A DNA stretch of 64,000 bases from Octopus vulgaris (lineage: Eukaryota): positions 106,640,001 to 106,704,000 of the forward strand of contig OX597822.1 in NCBI GenBank assembly GCA_951406725.2, in the 5' to 3' direction. Every line of letters starts with the position of its first letter. Positions within the stretch are counted from its first letter, which is position 1. Of this stretch, positions 7,956 through 53,660 are shown piece after piece. The notes beneath the pieces are model-generated. The model had not been told where the DNA came from. It ran no database searches and saw only the letters and a list, made by a program, of their open reading frames with translations. Position numbers and translations under genes: made by a program.

Positions 7956-8220
7956 GGACGCAGAAAAAAACAAGGAGAGAAACAAGGAGAGAAAAAAATG
8001 TGTGTAGTGGCTAATGATCTATCTCGCCGACTGTATATATGGACACTCATGCATATATTAATCCGTATACAGACTTGAGCTAACATTTTAATTCACCTGA
8101 AGAAAACAGTTTCTTTCATGATGTAATTGATTCGTTCATCAATAAAAAAACACATCTGAAACAGCTGTAGCAAACCTGAGGAGGAGGTAGTGTTTTCCAA
8201 AATATAATTCAAATGCTTAC

Positions 8221-8387
8221 CATTTTCAGTGTTAGTAATTAGAGGTTCTTTGTCTCCTGTCATGATAACTGTGTGAATATTCTCAACAGTAACATAGGCT
8301 TGCCAAGTAGACAGAGCTTCAGAATGATCCTGACTTGGAAATAAGGATCTATTGTTTATCCAGTGTCCACAAGTAAACATGCACATA
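8221..8387 (-). CDS. AOPEP: AOPEP coding exon 2 (MCMFTCGHWINNRSLFPSQDHSEALSTWQAYVTV...)
   Basis: Acceptor cag at 8388-8390 and donor G|gtaagc at 8220; phases 2 and 1 match the neighbouring exons. Peptide resembles AOPEP INNRALFPCQEPPVAMSTWQATV. Confidence 0.92.
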
Positions 8388-8727
8388 CTGAAAAGATTGG
8401 GAAATATAAAGAAAAGAAAAACTTAGTAATAGAGACTTTGATAGTAGTGTATAATTTCATAAGATCAATACCAATAAATACAAATTACTGTTTTTATGAT
8501 AACAATACTAACATCTTAAAATACATTAATGTATCCAGGCACAGGCATGGCTGCATGGTTGAATAGTATGCTTGCCAGCCACAGGGTTTTGGGTTCAGTT
8601 CCACTACATGGCACATTGGGCAAGTGCCTTCTACTATAACTTTGGGATAACCAAAGCCTTGTGAGTGAATTTGACAAGTGGAAACTGAAAGAAGCCTGTT
8701 GTTGTTGTTATTGTGTGTGTATATATA

Positions 8728-9490
8728 TCATCATTATCTTCCTTTAGTGTCAGCTTTCCATGTTGGCATGGGCTAGAGAGTTTGACTGGAACTGGTAAGC
8801 TGGAGAGCTGCACCAAATCCCAGTCTGATTTGGCATGGTTTCTACAGCTGCCAACCACTCCGAAAGCATAATGGGTGCTTTATACATGCCACTGGTACAG
8901 GTGCTTTTATGTCCCACCAGCAACAGGACACTGGCATTAGCCATGACTTTACTTGGCTTGACAAGTTTTCTCAAGCACATGCCAGCACCACCTTGACTGG
9001 CTTCCGTGCCGATGGCACGTAAAAGGCACCAACCGATCATGGCCGTTGCCAGCCTCCCCTGGCACCTGTGCTGCTGGCATGTAAAAAGCACCATCTGTAT
9101 ATGGCCGATGCCAGCGCCGCCTTGACTGGCTTCCGTACCGGTGGCACGTAAAAAGCACCAACCAATCATGGCCATTGCCAGCCTATACTGGCACCTAAAA
9201 AGCACCATCTGCATGTGACTATCTGTATGTGCCGCCTTGAGTGGCACGTAAAAAGCACCAACCGATTGTGGCCGTTGCCAGCCTATCCTGGCACCTGTGC
9301 TGGTGGCACGTAAAAAGTACCCACTAGACTCACAGAGTAGTTGGCGTTAGGAAGAGCATCCAGCTGTAGAAACACTGCCAGATCAGACTGGAGCCTGGTG
9401 CAGCCTCCTGGCTTCCCAGACCCTGGTCGAACCATCCAACCCATGCTAGCATGGAAAACGGACGTTAAACGATGATGATGATGAGGATGA
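8728..9490. mobile_element. Head-to-head pair of family A repeats with internal tandem subunits
   Basis: 8728-8970(-) abuts 8970-9490(+). Confidence 0.75.
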
Positions 9491-10254
9491 TATCACCAAA
9501 GGTCTCGGTTACTTGTATATACAGTGTACTGTTCCATTTCAGTGAGAATCAACCAAAAAAAGTATTCCATCCAGTAAGAGATATCATTTAATATACACAG
9601 GATTTAAATGTGAGTTTACAATAAGCTGCATGCTTCTGATAGCACAATAGTTGGGCAAGCTTGTATAGAATACCATGTACTACTGGGCAATATTTTAGCC
9701 TGAAAAATTGTTCAGAAGCATGAAACTTATAGTAGCTCACATTTAAATCCTTGTGTGTGTGTGTGTGTACTCATTAACCTCCTGACCACTTGAGTGGGTT
9801 AGTTGCAATGCTGGAGAAACTACACATATGTGTATTGCTGAAGGATATTCCTATCCCTCAACAAGATGAAGACATCAAGCTTCTCATCCATAAATTCATG
9901 TAAAGTAAATATAACAAATGAAAAATCCTTCAAGAATCCATAAAAATTCCCGGATCGTCTGTTCTTTATGTCATTACCAACTTTTTCTGCAAGTTTCATC
10001 AAATACCGTTCACAACTTTTTGAGTTATGTTGCATACAGACGGACAAACCAACACCGATGGAAACATAACCTCCTTCCTTGGCGGAGGTAATTATATACC
10101 ACCTGATAGCAATACAGTTGGTGAAATTAATATGAATTGCCTCTGTAATATGTCCAATATAAGTGTAAATAGCCATAAAACTTGCTTACAAAAATGACAT
10201 AAAGTAAGTAAAAACAGAAAAGGCTGTGAATTAGCATTATATATATATATAGAA

Positions 10255-10296
<42 letters not shown>

Positions 10297-10483
10297 ATAA
10301 TAAATATTAGGGAATAAATCCAAATTTACAGGGAAAATCAGATTTAGGATTGAATCCAATTTTATAGTAAAATATTATATAATATTAATTAGAGACAAAA
10401 CCACTATTTTGCAAATCAAACAAAGAAAGACTTAATCCAATACATAAAACCATTTTAATATAAATTAAATAAAATTATATTCG

Positions 10484-10529
10484 CCACTACAATTGTTTCA
10501 TGTCTCTTCTCAGGACATTCATCAGGTGG
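10484..10529 (-). ncRNA. Minimal type I hammerhead ribozyme (Penelope-like type)
   Basis: Minus strand CCAC-CTGATGA-ATGTC-ctgagaaga-GACAT-GAAA-CAATTG-TA-GTGG. Intact core, perfect stems I and II, palindromic stem III, GUA triplet. Confidence 0.88.
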
Positions 10530-10606
10530 ATTTCAGATCTTCTATTTTAAGTTATATATATGTATGTATAAATGTTTCAAGAAAATCTCAAAGAATTAAA
10601 ACTTAC

Positions 10607-11667
10607 TTCCCATCTTGGTCTGGTACCCATTTCAATGACTTCCCTTTGGCAAGTGTTGAATATTTAATTTTAATAGCAAACTTGGAATTTAGGCAGAATT
10701 CTTCTGTTGGATCCTTCTCAAAAATTCTCAGTGACCATTTGTCATTTTTAAATGACATTTCTTTACCAATTTTTAAAGAACATTGACGATAAAATTCTTC
10801 TCTTTTGGCAGAGGAATCAGCACCTGTTTCACATTCTTTAAAACATTTATTTTGGCATTTATCGCACCAAAGAAGTGGTAATAAAGTAACTTCAGAAACA
10901 ATAATATCGCAGGCATCGAGTATAAATACGGAATGGTTATATTGGTTACTGCCACCTTCCACTGACTGAAGGTTAATGTCTGAATTGCCAGGTAAAACTT
11001 TGGTAAATTGTTTCTGTTCTGAATGACAAATTGTAAAAGAATTCATTGACTCCGTAGATTCTTTACTTATATCCTTTGCAGTCATAAAATTTCTTTGATT
11101 GCCAATTGATGGAATTATTTCTTTGACGTTTTTATCATTTGAAGTAATATCTGTTGGTAAAATTTCCTCTTCTGAACACGAAGAATTAATTTGTGTAGAT
11201 CCAACAGTACCCAATTTTGGAATATATGGCGTTTTCTCATTATTGCTTGGAATATCATGCGTTGCAAAACTTGACTCAGTTTCCTCGCAGTCTTTTAAAT
11301 ATTGCTCAGACTGAGCAAAACTAGAATGTTCTTCATCAAAAAACACATTATCAGAGTTTAAAGAATCTGTAAGTTTATTTGAATTGCTTTCAGAACATTT
11401 TAAAATTTCACCGCAATTCTTCTGTTTCTTCTCTGCAATAATTTGGTCTGTAGTTACCTGTTTCCGCTTTTTTATTGGTAAAATGTAATTTTCTAAATGA
11501 GATTTCACTGGATCTGATTTAACACGATTAACAAAGAGTGTCGTTGATCCAGAAAGTATGTTTTTAGAAAAGTCACACATCAAATCCAGAATATAATGCT
11601 GGACACAATATGTGTCTATGTTTGCCATCAGCGGCAGATCATTTTCTTTGGTGTTATCCTGTTCCAT
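10607..11667 (-). CDS. AOPEP: Aminopeptidase O (M1 peptidase family), first coding exon
   Basis: ORF begins MEQDNTKENDLPLMANIDTYCVQHYILDLMCDFS and ends KYSTLAKGKSLKWVPDQDG, resembling the AOPEP N-terminus as I recall it (DDLPLMAN..VKHYVLDL ... W.SDQSG). Acceptor ttttaaccag (11678-11680) lies just upstream of the ATG, implying an unseen 5'UTR exon. Donor AA|gtaagt at 10606, phase 2. Confidence 0.9.
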
Positions 11668-11950
11668 TTTCTTTTAACTGGTTAAAAATGAAAATAATAA
11701 AAAATTATAAAAAACATGAAATTAAATGATAAAGTATATTTAAAACTAAAAACTACCAACTTTTTTTTTAAAAGTTACAAATAGAAAACAATCAATAAAT
11801 GATAAAAATTGAGAGGAATCATAAGCAAAGGTTTGGTTTCAAACAACATGAAATCGCAGATGTTAAATTTCTGGAAAAACATCTACAAGATAAGTATTTG
11901 GCAGCAGGGTTTTATATTTGTTAACACACACACACTCATATATATATAAA

Positions 11951-30635: not shown

Positions 30636-31332
30636 AATATAATATAATGAAATTATTGTATACAGTGCTCAGGTGCACCACAACTTGTCAAAAGTGCACA
30701 TAAAGTACATGCAGTAATGTAGAAGTGTCTGGAAAGCGAACAATGTATGAGTCAGATACATGCTTGTGTGTGTATGGAGGGGAGAAAATCAAGTGTAGTG
30801 TTGGCGAATCTCAGGAAGCATGGAAGTTTTGAAGGATGCAGTGCTCCGACAACTAACAATCGATGCCGGCAGTTTGTTCCACGCTTCAGCAAGTCTCAGC
30901 GTGAAAAAAATGTTTCCTGAAGTCATGGGAGCTGTGCTGTTTTCTTACTTTGTAAATATGTCCACGGGTGTTAGATGGGTGGAGTTTGAAGAGGTGCTCA
31001 GAGTTATTGTTTGTGCGATGGTTGATAATTTTATGGGTGTCTGCCAAGTCAGCTGCCAGACGTCGGAGTTTCAATGTGTCCATGCCCAGGGAAGTAAGGC
31101 GTTCAGGATATGGCAAATGCCTGATGGAGGGTATTCTTTTGGTTGCACGTCGCTGAACAGCTTCCAGACGATTGATGTCCTGGGCAAGATAGGGGTTCCA
31201 GACCGGTGATGCAAATTCCAGGTGAGGTCTTACCATAGCTATATAAAGCCGCAGATAGATAGCCGGAGAGCGGCTCACAAAGGATTTTGGTGAGTGATGC
31301 CAAGACACCCTCAGCCTTCTTGACAATTTTAG
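30636..31332 (-). mobile_element. CR1-clade LINE 3' fragment
   Basis: LYIAMVRPHLEFASPVWNPY...LEAVQRRATK...RKHFF. Confidence 0.85.
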
Positions 31333-31589
31333 CGATATTGTTTTACTGTCCCTTGTTCCATGTTGGAATTCGGATTTTTCTATGGCCAGAAGCCCCCTCT
31401 TGTTACCCACCCTTACCTGAATATATATAAGAAAGGTAATATTTCCCTCTGGTCAGGCATGTTTTTCATGGAGGACAAGAAATGAAAACTACTGCTTGTA
31501 TGATGCTGACTGTCACCTACAATTATCACTTGATGTCAAGACAAGGTGACACAAACACATGTCCATACACACACACATGTATGTACATG

Positions 31590-42269: not shown

Positions 42270-43528
42270 TTTTACACTTAGACCTTTGGAAAAATTTGTG
42301 TTTACTGGTGGAGAATGCTTTGTTTTGCTTATTAAGTAAGTGTGTAGGGTTATGTAATAATATCTACAAGAGTGCTAGTGCCACGTAAAAAGCATCTAGT
42401 CCATACTGTAAAGTGATAGGCATTTGGAAGGGCATCCAGCTGTAAAAACCATGCCAAAGCTGACTTCGCCTGTGCTGGTGCCATGTAAAAAGCATTCAGT
42501 ACATTCTGTGGGATAGTTGGTGTTATGAATGGCATCCAGCTGTAAAAACCTTGCCAAAACTGACCTTGCCTGTGCTGGTGCCATGTAAAAAGCATTCAGT
42601 CCACTCTGCAGAGTGGTTGGTGTTAGGAATGGCATCCAGCTGTAAAGGACGAAGCCAAAACAGACACAGAAGTCTGGTGCAGTCTTCTTCCTGGTCAGCT
42701 CCTGTCAAACCACCCAACCCATGCCAACATGGAAGGTGGATGTTAAAGGATGATGATGATGATTCTTTTAGGTATAGCCAACAAGTAGTATATTGGTCCT
42801 GGTATGGGAGGCCAGAATCTACGATAGACTAGGATATGCTGTAAGGTATCTTCATTTTCATAAGGTAATACACAATGTCATCTAGAGAAGTAGATTTGCT
42901 ATGCTTTTCATACATAAGTGAATTTAGATGTGCTGAATACTGATGCTAGAGATTAATTGTAGATCCAATATAGTAGTTAGAATTGTGAAGTGTATTATGA
43001 ACTATGCATTTGTAAACCACATTAAACCTTCTGCAATGAGTTTGCAAAGGACATTCATTTGTAGACTTGCAACTGCAACCAAACCTATTTGGTATGAAGG
43101 AATTTCCTGTACACAGATTGGATGTTGTACTATTAGAGGGCATACTCCTAGTATATTTGTTATTATCGATATTGTTTGTACCTATAATGCATGGGTTAAT
43201 AAATGAGATTATAGATATTCTAGGTTCCAGGGAAAGACTAAGCATGGTAGTATTGATTTTTAGCAGAGTTATCTTACTATTCTGGAAATCAAAGTCATTC
43301 TTGCAGCTAGAAAGACCTTGGTTACCTTTGATATTGAACTTAGGTACAGGGCATCACATAATAATTTCTTCTGTTGATGTCTTCAACATAATCAATTCTG
43401 AGAGATGGATTAGTGGGAAAGTGCAATTGATAAAAATGACTTGTAGTATTTGTTCTTATCTTCTGGACTATATATTCAACCCTTTAACTGCAAAGTTAAA
43501 TTTCATGGTTATTCCTGAAATTATTTAA
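42270..43528 (-). mobile_element. Degenerate Penelope-like element ORF remnant (GIY-YIG endonuclease region), interrupted by a family A-like repeat at 42371-42761
   Basis: CSCKSTNECPLQTHC..NVVYKCIV...YYIGST, then Y.AH..S...EKH..ST.L...Y.L, PY......C.L and LLNK....S..KHK motifs; multiple stops. Confidence 0.7.
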
Positions 43529-48755: not shown

Positions 48756-48802
48756 CCTGGGCTGATGACGGGTTAAGACCCAGAAACATGCATGTCCTCA
48801 GG
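48756..48802 (+). ncRNA. Type I hammerhead ribozyme with extended stem I
   Basis: CCTGGG-CTGATGA-c-GGGT-taag-ACCC-a-GAAA-CATGCATG-TC-CTCAGG. Full catalytic core, 6-bp stem I, GUC triplet; predicted cleavage after 48796. Confidence 0.88.
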
Positions 48803-48944: not shown

Positions 48945-50186
48945 TAATAATAATAATAATAATAATAATAATTGTGTACAGTGCTCAGGTGCACTACAAC
49001 TCATCTAAAGTGTATATATAATCAGGTGTAGTTTCGGCGGATTTCGGAAAGCATGAGGGCCTTAAAGGATGCAGTGTCATGGCAGTCAACAACTGACGCA
49101 GGCAGTTTATTCCATGCTTCAGCAACTCTGAGCGTGAAAAAATGTTTCCGAAAGTCATGGGAGCTGTGCTGTTTTCTGACTTTGTAGGCATGTCCGCGTG
49201 TGTTAGACACATGGAGATCAAAAAGGTGTTCAGTGTTGTTGTTGGTGAGGTGGTTGATAACTTTGTGGGTGTTTACCAAGTCCGTCGCCAGACGCCGGAG
49301 CTTCAGTGAATCCATGCCCAGGGAAACAAGGCGCTCAGAATATGGTAGGTGTCTGATGGAGGGTATGCGTTTGGTTACACGTCTCTGGACAGATTCCAGG
49401 AGGTCAATGTTCTGAGCAAGATAGGGGTTCCAAACTGATGATGCGAATTCCAAGTGTGGTCGTACCATAGCTGTATACAGTTTTAAATAGATGGCTGGAG
49501 AGCGTCTAACAAAAGTTTTGCTGAGTGATGCCAAGACACCCTCGGCCTTCTTGACAATTTTAGAGATATGCTTTGTCCAACGCAAATCACTGCTGACAGT
49601 GATGCCTAGGTCACGCTCGCAAGAGGATTTCTTGATATCAGTGTTGTGGAGGGAGTATGTGGACGCAGGTTTTTTTCTCCCAAAATGCATGGTGGTACAC
49701 TTGTCCACAGCCAGTTTCAGTTGCCAGTCTGTGATCCATTGCTGCATTGTGTCTAGGTCTGATTGCAGGAAAGAGTTGTAGACATCAGGATCTGTCCTCT
49801 TGATTTCAAGGTACAGCTTGATGTCGTCTGCATATTTCAATACTGTGGCATTCTTTAAATTGGCATCTATGTCATTAATGTATGCCACAAACAAGAGGGG
49901 ACCAAGGACAGATCCCTGTGGTACACCCGATGACATTTCATATGGTGTAGAGTGCTGTCCTAGAACTGTGACTACCTCCTTTCGGCTGAGGATGAAGGAT
50001 TTCAACCAGTTAAAAAGGTCATCTCCCACACCCATTGCAGAGAGTTTCACCATAAGCCTTTTGTGTGGCACAGAGTTGAAAGCCTTAGCAAAGTCTAGGT
50101 AGACAACATCCACCCATGAGCCACTGTCAGTGATCTGAGTAATGTCCTCAAGGAACTCGACAAGCTGAGGAACTCGACAAGCTGAG
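48945..50186 (-). mobile_element. 5'-truncated CR1-clade LINE with uninterrupted RT reading frame (ORF 49022-50209)
   Basis: YLDFAKAF, GVPQGSVLGPLLF, KYADD, ERDLG and VRPHLEF motifs; (ATT)n tail. Confidence 0.93.
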
Positions 50187-51490
50187 TTATGTTGACAGTA
50201 TACAGCCACTCTAATATTGTGATGATTGTAGGGAAATATTACCTTGCATGGACACAGGGGAGGGTTGGAGACAGGAAGGGCATCCAGCTGTAGAAAATCT
50301 GTCTTGACAAATTCTGTCCGATTTATACAAGCATAAGAAAGTGGATGGTAAAATGATGATGACCATTAACAAGTCATAGAGGGAATCTCCATTAGTTCGG
50401 TCAACCTGCTAGAGATAGCAAAAAAATTTCCCCCAAATCACACCCTGTTGGCTTTAAGAATAGAAAGGACACTTTGGATAATGTAGTCCTTCTTTCATGT
50501 TGTCTAAAATATAAAATGGATGGTCATGGTTGGAATACCTTTTGATTATATGTCTGCTGGATCACAGCTGACTCGGGGACTGAACCACAACATTATCATG
50601 TTTTATGTTTTACTGCTTTCACTAGTATTGGTGCCATGATAAAAAAGGGCACCCAGTGCACTCTGTAAAGTGGTTGGTGTGAGGAAGGGCACCCAGTCAT
50701 AGAAACCATGCCAAAGAAGAACCTGGGGCACAATGCAGTCCTCAGACCCATTGGATTCGGTCAAACCATCCAACCCCTGCTAGTATGGAAAATGAATGTT
50801 AACAGATGGTGATGGTGATGATGATGTTCTAATTTCTAATCACACAGGAGTTGATTAAATTAATACAAGATAATGTTGGTGTTAGGAAGAGCATCCAGCC
50901 ATAGAAACCACAGATATTCCCATTTTGAAAATCTTCTCTGGCTAATCATTGAGAGGACATTGGTGGAGGTTTGTGCTCTCTGAGTGCTCTTGTTATTATT
51001 GTTATTATAATTTTTATTGTGGGACAGTGAGCTGGCAGAATTGTTAGCACACTGGGCAAAATGCCCAGCAGCATTTTGTCTGTCCTTAACATTCCGAGTT
51101 CAAATTCTGCTGAGGCCGACTTTGCTTTCCATCCTTTCGGGTTGATAAAATAAGTACCAATTGAAACTGGGGTTGATGTAATTGACTAGCCCTTTTTCCC
51201 CACAAAATTTCAGGCTGTGTACCTTTAGAAAAAAAAGGGATTATTATTATGATGGCTAGCTGACAGAGCCATTTGCATAGGGAGCAAACTGCTTCATGGC
51301 ATTTCATTCGTCTTTATATTCTGAGTTCAATTTGTGCTGAGGTCGACTTTGCCTTTCATCTGTCCGGGGTCGATGAAAACACTGGGGTCAATGTAATTAA
51401 CTTATCCCCTCCCATCAAAAATGGCTGCCCTTGTGGAAAAATTTGAAACCATTATTATTATTATTATTTTTATTTTTATTATTATTATAG

Positions 51491-52502: not shown

Positions 52503-53113
52503 ATAAATAATAATAATAATAATAATAATAATAATTGTGTACAGTGCTCAGGTGCACTACAACTCATCTAAAGTGTATATATAATCAGGTGTAGTTTCGG
52601 CGGATTTCGGAAAGCATGAGGGCCTTAAAAGATGCAGTGTCATGGCAGTCAACAACTGACGCAGGCAGTTTATTCCATGTTTCAGCAACTCTGAGCGTGA
52701 AAAAATGTTTCCGAAAGTCATGGGAGCTGTATTGTTTTCTGACTTTGTAGGCATGTCCACGTGTGTTAGACACATGGAGATCAAAAAGGTGTTCAGTGTT
52801 GTTGTTGGTGAGGTGGTTGATAACTTTGTGGGTGTTTACCAAGTCCGTCGCCAAACGCCGGAGCTTCAGTGAATCCATGCCCAGGGAAACAAGGCGCTCA
52901 GAATATGGTAGGTGTCTGATGGAGGGTATGCGTTTGGTTGCACGTCTCTGGACAGATTCCAGGAGGTCAATGTTCTGTGCAAGATAGGGGTTCCAAACTG
53001 ATGATGCGAATTCCAAGTGTGGTCGTACCATAGCTGTATACAGTTTTAAATAGATGGCTGGAGAGCGGCTAACAAAAGACCTGCTGAGTGATGCCAAGAC
53101 ACCCTCGGCCTTC
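52503..53113 (-). mobile_element. CR1 LINE 3' fragment, nearly identical to 48945-49550
   Basis: Same peptide and 3'UTR, (ATT)n tail. Confidence 0.92.
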
Positions 53114-53660
53114 CTATCGTTAACAAAATACTTTGATCTTAACAAAAACGCAAGTACCCATTCAGCTAAGAGGAAATTGTGAGTTCAGAATGCATTACAT
53201 GTAGCTATCATCATCATCATCATTTAAAGTCCGCTTTCCATGCTAGCATGGGTTGGATGCTTTGACAGGTCTGGCGAACCAGACTCCAGTCTGATTTGGC
53301 AGAGTTTCTACAGCTGAATGCCCTTCCTAACGCCAACCACTCTGAGAGTGTAGTGGGTGCTTTTACGTGCCACCGGCACGAGGGCCAGTTTGGTGGTACT
53401 GGCAACGGCCATGCCCAAATAGTACTTTTTATGTCACCTGCACACTCGCCAGTCCAGCAGCACTGGTGACGACCTCGCTCGAATGTTTCACGTGCCACCT
53501 GCACAAGTGCTAGTAAGGTGACGCGGTAATGATCACGCTTGAATGGTGCGCTTCACGTTCGAATGGTCTGCTATTATTATTGATCTTTGCTATATGTCTG
53601 TCTTTTTCTCTTCTTGTTTTCTATAAAAACTTTTTTTCTTTTTTCTAATTCCAATTACAG

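What the first reader, a model, noticed from the sequence alone, without database searches (positions are those of the whole stretch)
10484..10529. Perfect minimal hammerhead 77 nt downstream of the AOPEP first coding exon donor, sense strand
Seen: minus-strand CCAC CUGAUGA AUGUC-loop-GACAU GAAA CAAUUG UA GUGG, with every core nucleotide and stem pair intact. It sits in an AT-rich repeat (about 10292-10550) next to (TA)n, on the AOPEP pre-mRNA strand very close to the 5' splice site at 10606. Established: minimal hammerheads with a short palindromic stem III generally need dimerisation to cleave efficiently. Inference: it is either a tolerated, monomer-inactive Penelope relic or a conditional co-transcriptional cleavage site affecting AOPEP splicing.
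Basis: partly seen in the sequence, partly recalled or inferred. Interest (0 to 1): 0.75.

Follow-up and report, generated by a model that had tools for sequence, protein, structure and literature searches.

The report
Hydra-clade Penelope leader with hammerhead
The self-cutting RNA motif is real, but it is one of hundreds of copies of the front end of a young jumping gene that landed in a TA repeat of this intron, likely as a silent passenger; the more useful point is that many copies, this one included, lack the jumping gene's own intron precisely, which suggests they were copied from spliced RNA.

Summary
The hammerhead at 10529-10484 (minus) is there letter for letter, 77 nt inside a 2,219-nt intron of an M1 aminopeptidase gene. 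It belongs to a 264-bp insertion (about 10555-10292), the truncated leader (pLTR) of a young Hydra-clade Penelope-like retrotransposon. The same 46-mer occurs at 50 genomic places and a leader anchor at 266; intact 838-aa RT-endonuclease copies carry the same leader. Its perfection reflects youth, not host selection. It has no partner copy in the window, monomer helix III is predicted unformed, and the host intron is spliced normally in 4 of 4 RNA-like runs. A regulatory role on the host gene is unsupported. Two family-level observations go further. Longer copies hold a 1.0-1.3-kb GT-AG intron ending 9 nt before the ribozyme, whereas this copy and 32 of 51 sampled copies reaching that point have the exact spliced joint, pointing to sense, spliced RNA templates. 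Five copies begin at the predicted cut site against 0, 0, 0 and 2 at neighbouring offsets, a weak hint of cleavage in vivo.

The parts
10484..10529 (-). Type I minimal hammerhead: stem I 4 bp, core CUGAUGA/GAAA, stem II 4 conserved pairs plus a variable basal position, palindromic helix III, GUA triplet
10489..10496 (-). 8-nt self-complementary helix III strand; 2 bp as a monomer, 8 bp between two copies (predicted)
   Evidence: monomer pair probability 0.03, duplex -6.4 kcal/mol, dimer -24.2 versus 2 x -7.9; one change on both sides and one wobble keep the palindrome
10487..10488 (-). Predicted cleavage site (after A10488)
   Evidence: hammerhead numbering (established knowledge); five genomic copies begin at the equivalent base
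10292..10555 (-). 5'-truncated leader (pLTR) copy of a Hydra-clade Penelope-like element, ending at the family's distal fixed end
10538..10539 (-). Exon-exon joint left by precise loss of the element's 1.0-1.3-kb GT-AG intron, 9 nt before stem I
10539..10555 (-). Remnant of the element's short first exon (one 5-nt repeat unit missing relative to sister copies); its start lies where most spliced copies start
10292..10378 (-). About 80-nt tail between the family's two fixed 3' ends, holding a predicted hairpin at about 10364-10334
10238..10293 (.). (TA)n target microsatellite, downstream side; a short TA/TACA run also flanks the upstream side (10556-10572)
10607..11677 (-). First coding exon of the host M1 aminopeptidase gene (ATG at 11667; upstream acceptor read from sequence)
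8388..10606 (-). Host intron, 2,219 nt, GT-AG
8215..8387 (-). Next host exon

Best explanation
The motif is the hammerhead of a young Hydra-clade Penelope-like retrotransposon, carried on a 264-bp leader fragment that lacks the element's intron and was likely copied from its spliced RNA into a TA repeat of this intron, where it is predicted to be inactive as a single copy and likely does nothing to the host gene. Shown: family membership, leader-to-ORF link, precise intron loss, two fixed 3' ends, TA targets, normal host splicing. Inferred: transcription starts near the short first exon; the intron is spliced; the element's protein nicks (TA)n and starts reverse transcription internally at one of two sites in the leader (as shown in vitro for a Poseidon element, PMC11167929), about 65 or 145 nt before the ATG; it copies across the uncut ribozyme and runs off the RNA's 5' end. 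The ribozyme is under selection in the element's lineage, where two copies can pair through the palindrome, not at this locus.
For: 40 of 40 scored candidates (of 1,850) match at 94-100%. Exact 46-mer at 50 places, reversed control 0; leader anchor at 266 places. The leader runs on into an ATG and ORFs of 838-841 aa with the Hydra motifs. 12 donor-acceptor pairs in 11 loci define a 1,010-1,306-nt GT-AG intron whose flanks are joined exactly in the window. In a position-ordered sample of 98 anchor copies, 62 cross the cut site intact, 32 are spliced and 19 carry the intron side; 95 are followed by a TA run; 25 of 73 sites have an inverted partner. Spliced forms occur in two subfamilies whose exon and ribozyme variants match their own intron-bearing relatives. 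Monomer helix III probability is 0.03 alone and under 0.01 in pre-mRNA context. Host intron joined normally in 4 of 4 runs from 4 studies. Single genomic copies do decay in the core (L012, L067, L149, L190). Single minimal PLE hammerheads showed no detectable cleavage in vitro (PMC4209133).
Against: No cleavage assay was possible. Only contigs were available, which cannot show RNA ends or rare products, and it is not known whether the animals behind the RNA runs carry this insertion. The insertion junction is present in DNA contigs of 3 of 4 runs laid, labelled as three organisms, so it is shared rather than private; the fourth run is uninformative. One of 60 spliced copies extends over 330 nt upstream, so intron-less master copies could have seeded some short copies without fresh splicing. 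Pfam finds no RT domain in the ORF; clade assignment rests on motifs, not on a tree. The PAc ribozyme cleaved when the element's protein was added (PMC11167929), so inactivity may be conditional.
Confidence: 0.85

Rival explanations
1. The intronic copy is cut now and then in trans, by pairing through the palindrome with transcripts of other family copies or with help from the element's protein in cells where the element is active, with little effect on host mRNA.
For: The motif is intact; family leader RNA appears in RNA-like contigs (records 12 and 21); a dimer is favourable in folding; five copies start at the cut site; protein-assisted cleavage is reported for PAc (PMC11167929).
Against: An 8-bp AU-rich duplex (-6.4 kcal/mol) at nuclear concentrations is weak (inference); in longer pre-mRNA context stems I and II are predicted mostly unformed (0.05-0.33); the copy ends before the ORF region that the PAc protein needed; even dimers cleaved poorly in vitro (PMC4209133).
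Confidence: 0.1
2. The host has co-opted the ribozyme as a conditional co-transcriptional cleavage site that tunes splicing or abundance of the aminopeptidase mRNA.
For: Sense orientation, 77 nt from the donor, shared by three labelled organisms. Conserved intronic hammerheads exist in amniotes (cited in PMC7229834).
Against: Sequence identical to 49 other copies, so no locus-specific conservation can be shown; no partner copy; no alternative joint at this donor in 4 runs; two further hammerhead-like repeats of other families lie in the same 64 kb, so such a position is common here.
Confidence: 0.04
3. The repeat is an independent non-coding retrozyme or a chance motif, not part of a coding element.
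For: Most copies are short and non-coding.
Against: The same leader continues into the ORF and recurs after it at 3.0-6.3 kb spacing; no same-strand pair among 73 sampled sites; shuffles give 0.02 matches.
Confidence: 0.01

Closest known systems
Hydra clade of C-terminal EN+ Penelope-like elements (Craig et al. 2021, PMC8557442; sections 3 and 11, passages and supplement searches seen)
   Same: RT plus C-terminal GIY-YIG-type domain, DKT motif, CxCX5C linker, no CCHH, CxxC and CxH around E and N, (TA)n targets, inverted partner and tail; listed Hydra hammerheads also have a 4-bp stem I, an extra base on each side of stem II and no G10.1-C11.1.
   Different: A different family from Hydra-1_Obim (other N-terminus and other hammerhead). 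Unit length 5.5-6.3 kb against under 3 kb, tail about 80 nt against 30-40, a 1.0-1.3-kb leader intron, and frequent intron-less copies, none of which I saw described for the clade.
Minimal and palindromic hammerheads of metazoan PLEs (Cervera and de la Pena 2014, PMC4209133; parts 1-2 of 4 read; Lunse et al. 2016 not held, seen only as cited in PMC6765202)
   Same: Type I topology, short stem I, palindromic helix III, mostly single dispersed motifs from truncated elements, pairs on opposite strands.
   Different: No G10.1-C11.1 pair; stem II conserved over 4 bp rather than 7-8.
Drosophila virilis Penelope leader intron (Schostak et al. 2008, PMC2377424, passages; PMC4209133)
   Same: Spliceosomal intron in the pLTR leader a few dozen nt after the start site, ending at the 5' side of the hammerhead.
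   Different: There the intron is 75 nt and described as retained in genomic copies; here it is 1.0-1.3 kb and genomic copies come in retained form and two spliced forms.
Poseidon of Anolis (PAc; Frangieh et al. 2024, PMC11167929; parts 1-2 of 4 and passages)
   Same: Two fixed 3' ends defining a tail, internal to the RNA; uncut RNA is the main template.
   Different: PAc starts reverse transcription inside the ORF and its ORF begins within the ribozyme; here both ends lie before the ATG. No ends at the PAc cut site were found in RNA-seq, whereas here five DNA copies begin at the cut site.
Metazoan non-LTR retrozymes (PMC7229834, passages; bioRxiv 10.64898/2026.07.22.740005, part 1 of 5)
   Same: Short non-coding hammerhead repeats related to PLE pLTRs.
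   Different: Retrozymes are direct tandem arrays of 200-400-nt units; this is a solo truncated leader of a coding element.

Membership tests
Type I minimal hammerhead ribozyme | Core CUGANGA, GAAA and UH at the junction of three helices | tested here: met
   core invariant except N7 (U, C, A) in 9 family variants
Type I minimal hammerhead ribozyme | Stems I and II paired; short palindromic helix III | tested here: met
   95.7% of cells paired, slid controls 23-64%; covariation is thin (2 pairs with changes on both sides; 47 of 500 shuffles reach the score)
Type I minimal hammerhead ribozyme | G10.1-C11.1 pair closing stem II | tested here: not met
   A-U in the window; A.C, A.G, A.A, U-A, U.U in relatives. 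Published Hydra-clade hammerheads also lack it
Type I minimal hammerhead ribozyme | Site-specific self-cleavage | not testable with these tools
   only the indirect count of copy starts
Penelope-like elements, EN+ | Single ORF with RT and C-terminal GIY-YIG-type endonuclease flanked by pLTRs | tested here: met
   ORFs of 838-841 aa with the hammerhead leader before and after; 44 homologs, some with PF00078 or weak GIY-YIG; no Pfam hit on the ORF itself
Penelope-like elements, EN+ | 5' truncation, inverted partner, tail | tested here: met
   the window copy itself has no inverted partner
Hydra clade | DKT motif, CxCX5C linker, no CCHH, CxxC/CxH around E and N, RWK motif | tested here: met
   the RWK position reads KWK in this family, RWK or RWR in the 7 aligned relatives
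Hydra clade | Insertion into (TA)n | tested here: met
   95 of 98 sampled copies
Hydra clade | Placement in the clade on an RT tree with reference elements | not tested
   reference proteins were seen only as cut supplement text
Non-LTR retrozyme | Direct tandem units of 200-400 nt, each with a hammerhead | tested here: not met
   0 same-strand pairs among 73 sites; none in the window
Conserved intronic regulatory hammerhead | Locus-specific conservation across species | tested here: inconclusive
   junction present in three closely similar labelled organisms, no information for the fourth; no distant octopod genome available
Aminopeptidase O (host gene) | Orthology to AOPEP within the M1 family | tested here: inconclusive
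   M1 domains shown, LTA4H cut-off not reached, no named ortholog returned

The most novel reading that the evidence does not exclude
This family records in its genomic copies that a Penelope-like element reverse-transcribes sense, spliced RNA (from two different donors, in several subfamilies) as readily as unspliced RNA, and that its minimal hammerhead cuts a few percent of templates in vivo. That would argue against the antisense-template explanation of PLE intron retention left open in PMC3846280 and give a genomic readout of a ribozyme whose in vivo action is unproven.
Probability: 0.45. Interest if true: 0.6.

Novelty: new member of a known kind. Interest (0 to 1): 0.36.

Why it matters
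As a host regulatory element it does not: hammerheads in Penelope leaders are known and common in this genome. The value lies in the family. PLEs are described as unusual for keeping introns after retrotransposition (PMC8557442), and one proposed reason was an antisense template (PMC3846280). Exact spliced joints in about six of ten copies that reach the acceptor favour a sense template, and the active-looking family with three RNA forms is a tractable system for testing template choice and ribozyme function. Three full-text searches showed no description of intron-less genomic PLE copies, but the library lacks most subscription papers (including Arkhipova 2003 and Lunse 2016) and Repbase.

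Tried and rejected
Rfam: no hammerhead match; its weak snoRNA and miRNA hits are far below gathering scores and were rejected. MFE of the 76-nt region is not unusual (z 0.20), so folding energy is no evidence. I first read the element as Neptune-like; the Hydra motifs replaced that. Retrozyme reading rejected (no tandem units). No run is on record as RNA; the four laid as RNA are guesses or unlabelled, though the spliced host joint shows transcript-derived contigs. No contig-end pile-up could be read (contigs cannot show ends). Lack of cover across the insertion in run X19 is uninformative. My automatic 5'-end caller misplaced at least three copies in the census (L083 through the palindrome, L142 and L149 through indels), so cut-site starts were re-read by eye. 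The census recovered 98 of the first 100 of 266 listed places; two were lost to a 2-base anchor shift. Protein atlas gave no answer for the host homolog. PMC8969392 (passages) had nothing on PLE intron loss. Earlier-findings look-ups by sequence, by place nearby and by one word set returned nothing.

Full report
Observation. The motif is present as described at 10529-10484 on the minus strand. The host exon ends at 10607, the donor starts at 10606, and the next exon starts at 8387; both exons align in order with a 995-aa Argonauta protein that carries M1 aminopeptidase domains. Contigs of 4 of 4 RNA-like runs from 4 studies join 10607 to 8387. The name AOPEP fits my recall but no call confirmed it. 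A structural descriptor gives 3 matches in the window against 0.02 in shuffles, so the motif is not chance, and hammerheads are not rare here.

The repeat. A search of the own genome with 10292-10560 scored 40 of 1,850 candidates; all 40 matched at 94-100%, and 25 further partial matches were inverted partners. The exact 46-mer occurs at 50 places and a 35-mer of the leader at 266. Copies end at two fixed points about 80 nt apart and are followed by TA runs in 95 of 98 sampled cases; 25 of 73 sampled sites hold a head-to-head pair. These are the tail and inverted-pLTR features described for PLEs (PMC8557442). The window copy spans about 10555-10292, has TA-type sequence on both sides and no partner.

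The parent. Walking upstream through longer copies and searching with the RT fragment found there (150 of 12,293 candidates scored, over ten with open frames above 800 aa) gave elements in which this leader continues about 65 nt past the distal end into an ATG and an ORF of 838-841 aa, and recurs 5.5-6.3 kb later. The ORF has the DKT motif, CxCX5C linker, no CCHH, and CxxC and CxH around the conserved E and N, which define the Hydra clade. It differs from Hydra-1_Obim in N-terminus and hammerhead. No tree was built.

The ribozyme in the family. Nine variants keep stem I, the core apart from N7, and four pairs of stem II; loop II varies freely. The basal position of stem II is paired in only 5 of 9 and is never G-C, as in the published Hydra list. 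In the palindrome, one variant changes both sides and one forms a wobble at positions that would be loop in a monomer, which fits selection on dimer pairing; one variant breaks it, and the counts are too few to be significant. Folding gives helix III a probability of 0.03 in the monomer and forms it fully in the dimer. Single minimal PLE hammerheads did not cleave in vitro and dimers cleaved weakly (PMC4209133). Individual genomic copies lose core bases, so selection acts on the element's lineage and not on each insertion.

Intron loss. Long copies carry a GT-AG intron of 1,010-1,306 nt (12 donor-acceptor pairs in 11 loci) whose acceptor lies 9 nt before stem I. The window copy has the two flanks joined exactly, at 10539/10538. 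In 98 anchor copies taken in chromosome order (of the first 100 listed of 266), 32 show this joint and 19 the intron side. 29 of the 32 start 68-84 nt upstream of the cut site (the measure was capped at 84), and 59 of 60 spliced copies in all loci do not continue into the upstream element sequence, which suggests run-off at a start site. Two subfamilies each have spliced and unspliced members with matching diagnostic bases. A second donor about 170 nt after the stop codon is joined to the same acceptor in three subfamilies (L095, L105, L122). The D. virilis element has an intron in the same position that is described as retained (PMC2377424, PMC4209133), and an antisense template was proposed to explain retention (PMC3846280). 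The simplest reading here is a sense, spliced template. The caveat is that intron-less master copies could account for part of the count; one long spliced copy exists.

Does it cut in vivo? 62 of the 98 copies cross the cut site intact and 50 hold the whole motif, so uncut RNA is the usual template, as for PAc (PMC11167929). Exact-pattern searches of the whole genome for copies starting at a given base gave: offset 0, six matches, five truncations (one ambiguous with -1, two with one extra G) and one substitution; offset -1, one match that is a deletion; -2 and +1, none; +2, two matches that microhomology also allows at 0, searched for one variant only. Five of seven at one of five offsets gives P about 0.005, or 0.03 if one moves. 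Against this: two of the five were seen before the test was designed, detection differs by offset, 34 of 98 sampled starts fall in the AT-rich stretch just downstream, and a GC-rich block could favour junctions. It is a hint, at a few percent of about 90-95 copies at risk.

The host locus. The insertion begins 51 nt after the donor. Its upstream junction is bridged without differences by DNA contigs in 3 of 4 runs, labelled as three organisms; the fourth stops short. No second leader copy lies in the window, the motif is predicted mostly unfolded in longer pre-mRNA context, and no alternative joint at the donor was listed (9 lesser joints were not shown). Contigs cannot exclude rare cleavage, but nothing points to a host function.

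Verdict. A new family of a known clade; the locus itself is most likely a passenger. Interest 0.36, owed mainly to the spliced copies and the cut-site starts. Earlier AI notes of this scan reported Hydra-clade ends in another intron, twin hairpins beyond the two fixed ends and cut-site starts in another family; I reached the clade and the cut-site count before reading the matching notes and checked the hairpins afterwards. The supplement of the bioRxiv retrozyme preprint and the Lunse and Arkhipova 2003 papers were not seen and may bear on novelty.

Noticed in passing
L122 (G000:C10:100765300-100773300), minus strand: Tandem of 2,979-nt units in which the 3'-UTR donor is joined to the acceptor before the hammerhead at both junctions; fits a back-spliced circular template or a spliced read-through of a tandem, not distinguished.
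   Followed up: partly
window 10364-10334 (-) and the equivalent place after the distal end in L113, L120, L121, L122: A predicted hairpin follows each of the two fixed 3' ends by about 15-25 nt, as earlier notes of this scan described for Hydra elements.
   Followed up: partly
window about 35104-35070 (-): A second minimal hammerhead with a 2-nt helix III insert; the same motif lies about 220 nt before the ORF of a more distant Hydra-like family (L124).
   Followed up: partly
window about 48758-48800 (+): A third hammerhead-like motif with a longer palindromic helix III; related motifs occur in L010 and L017.
   Followed up: no
window 42946-43353 (-): Fragment resembling a Penelope-type linker and GIY-YIG start; no Pfam hit.
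   Followed up: no
window 49022-50365, 52585-53184, 30886-31452 (-): LINE-type reverse transcriptase fragments (PF00078 for the first).
   Followed up: no
L114 and relatives, ORF residues about 480-590: Long asparagine-rich insertion between RT and endonuclease, absent from most metagenomic homologs; similar insertions were reported in rotifer Penelope ORFs (PMC3846280).
   Followed up: no
window 8267, 8336, 10929: All four RNA-like runs differ from the window at these three exonic positions; probably alleles, no matching DNA run laid.
   Followed up: no
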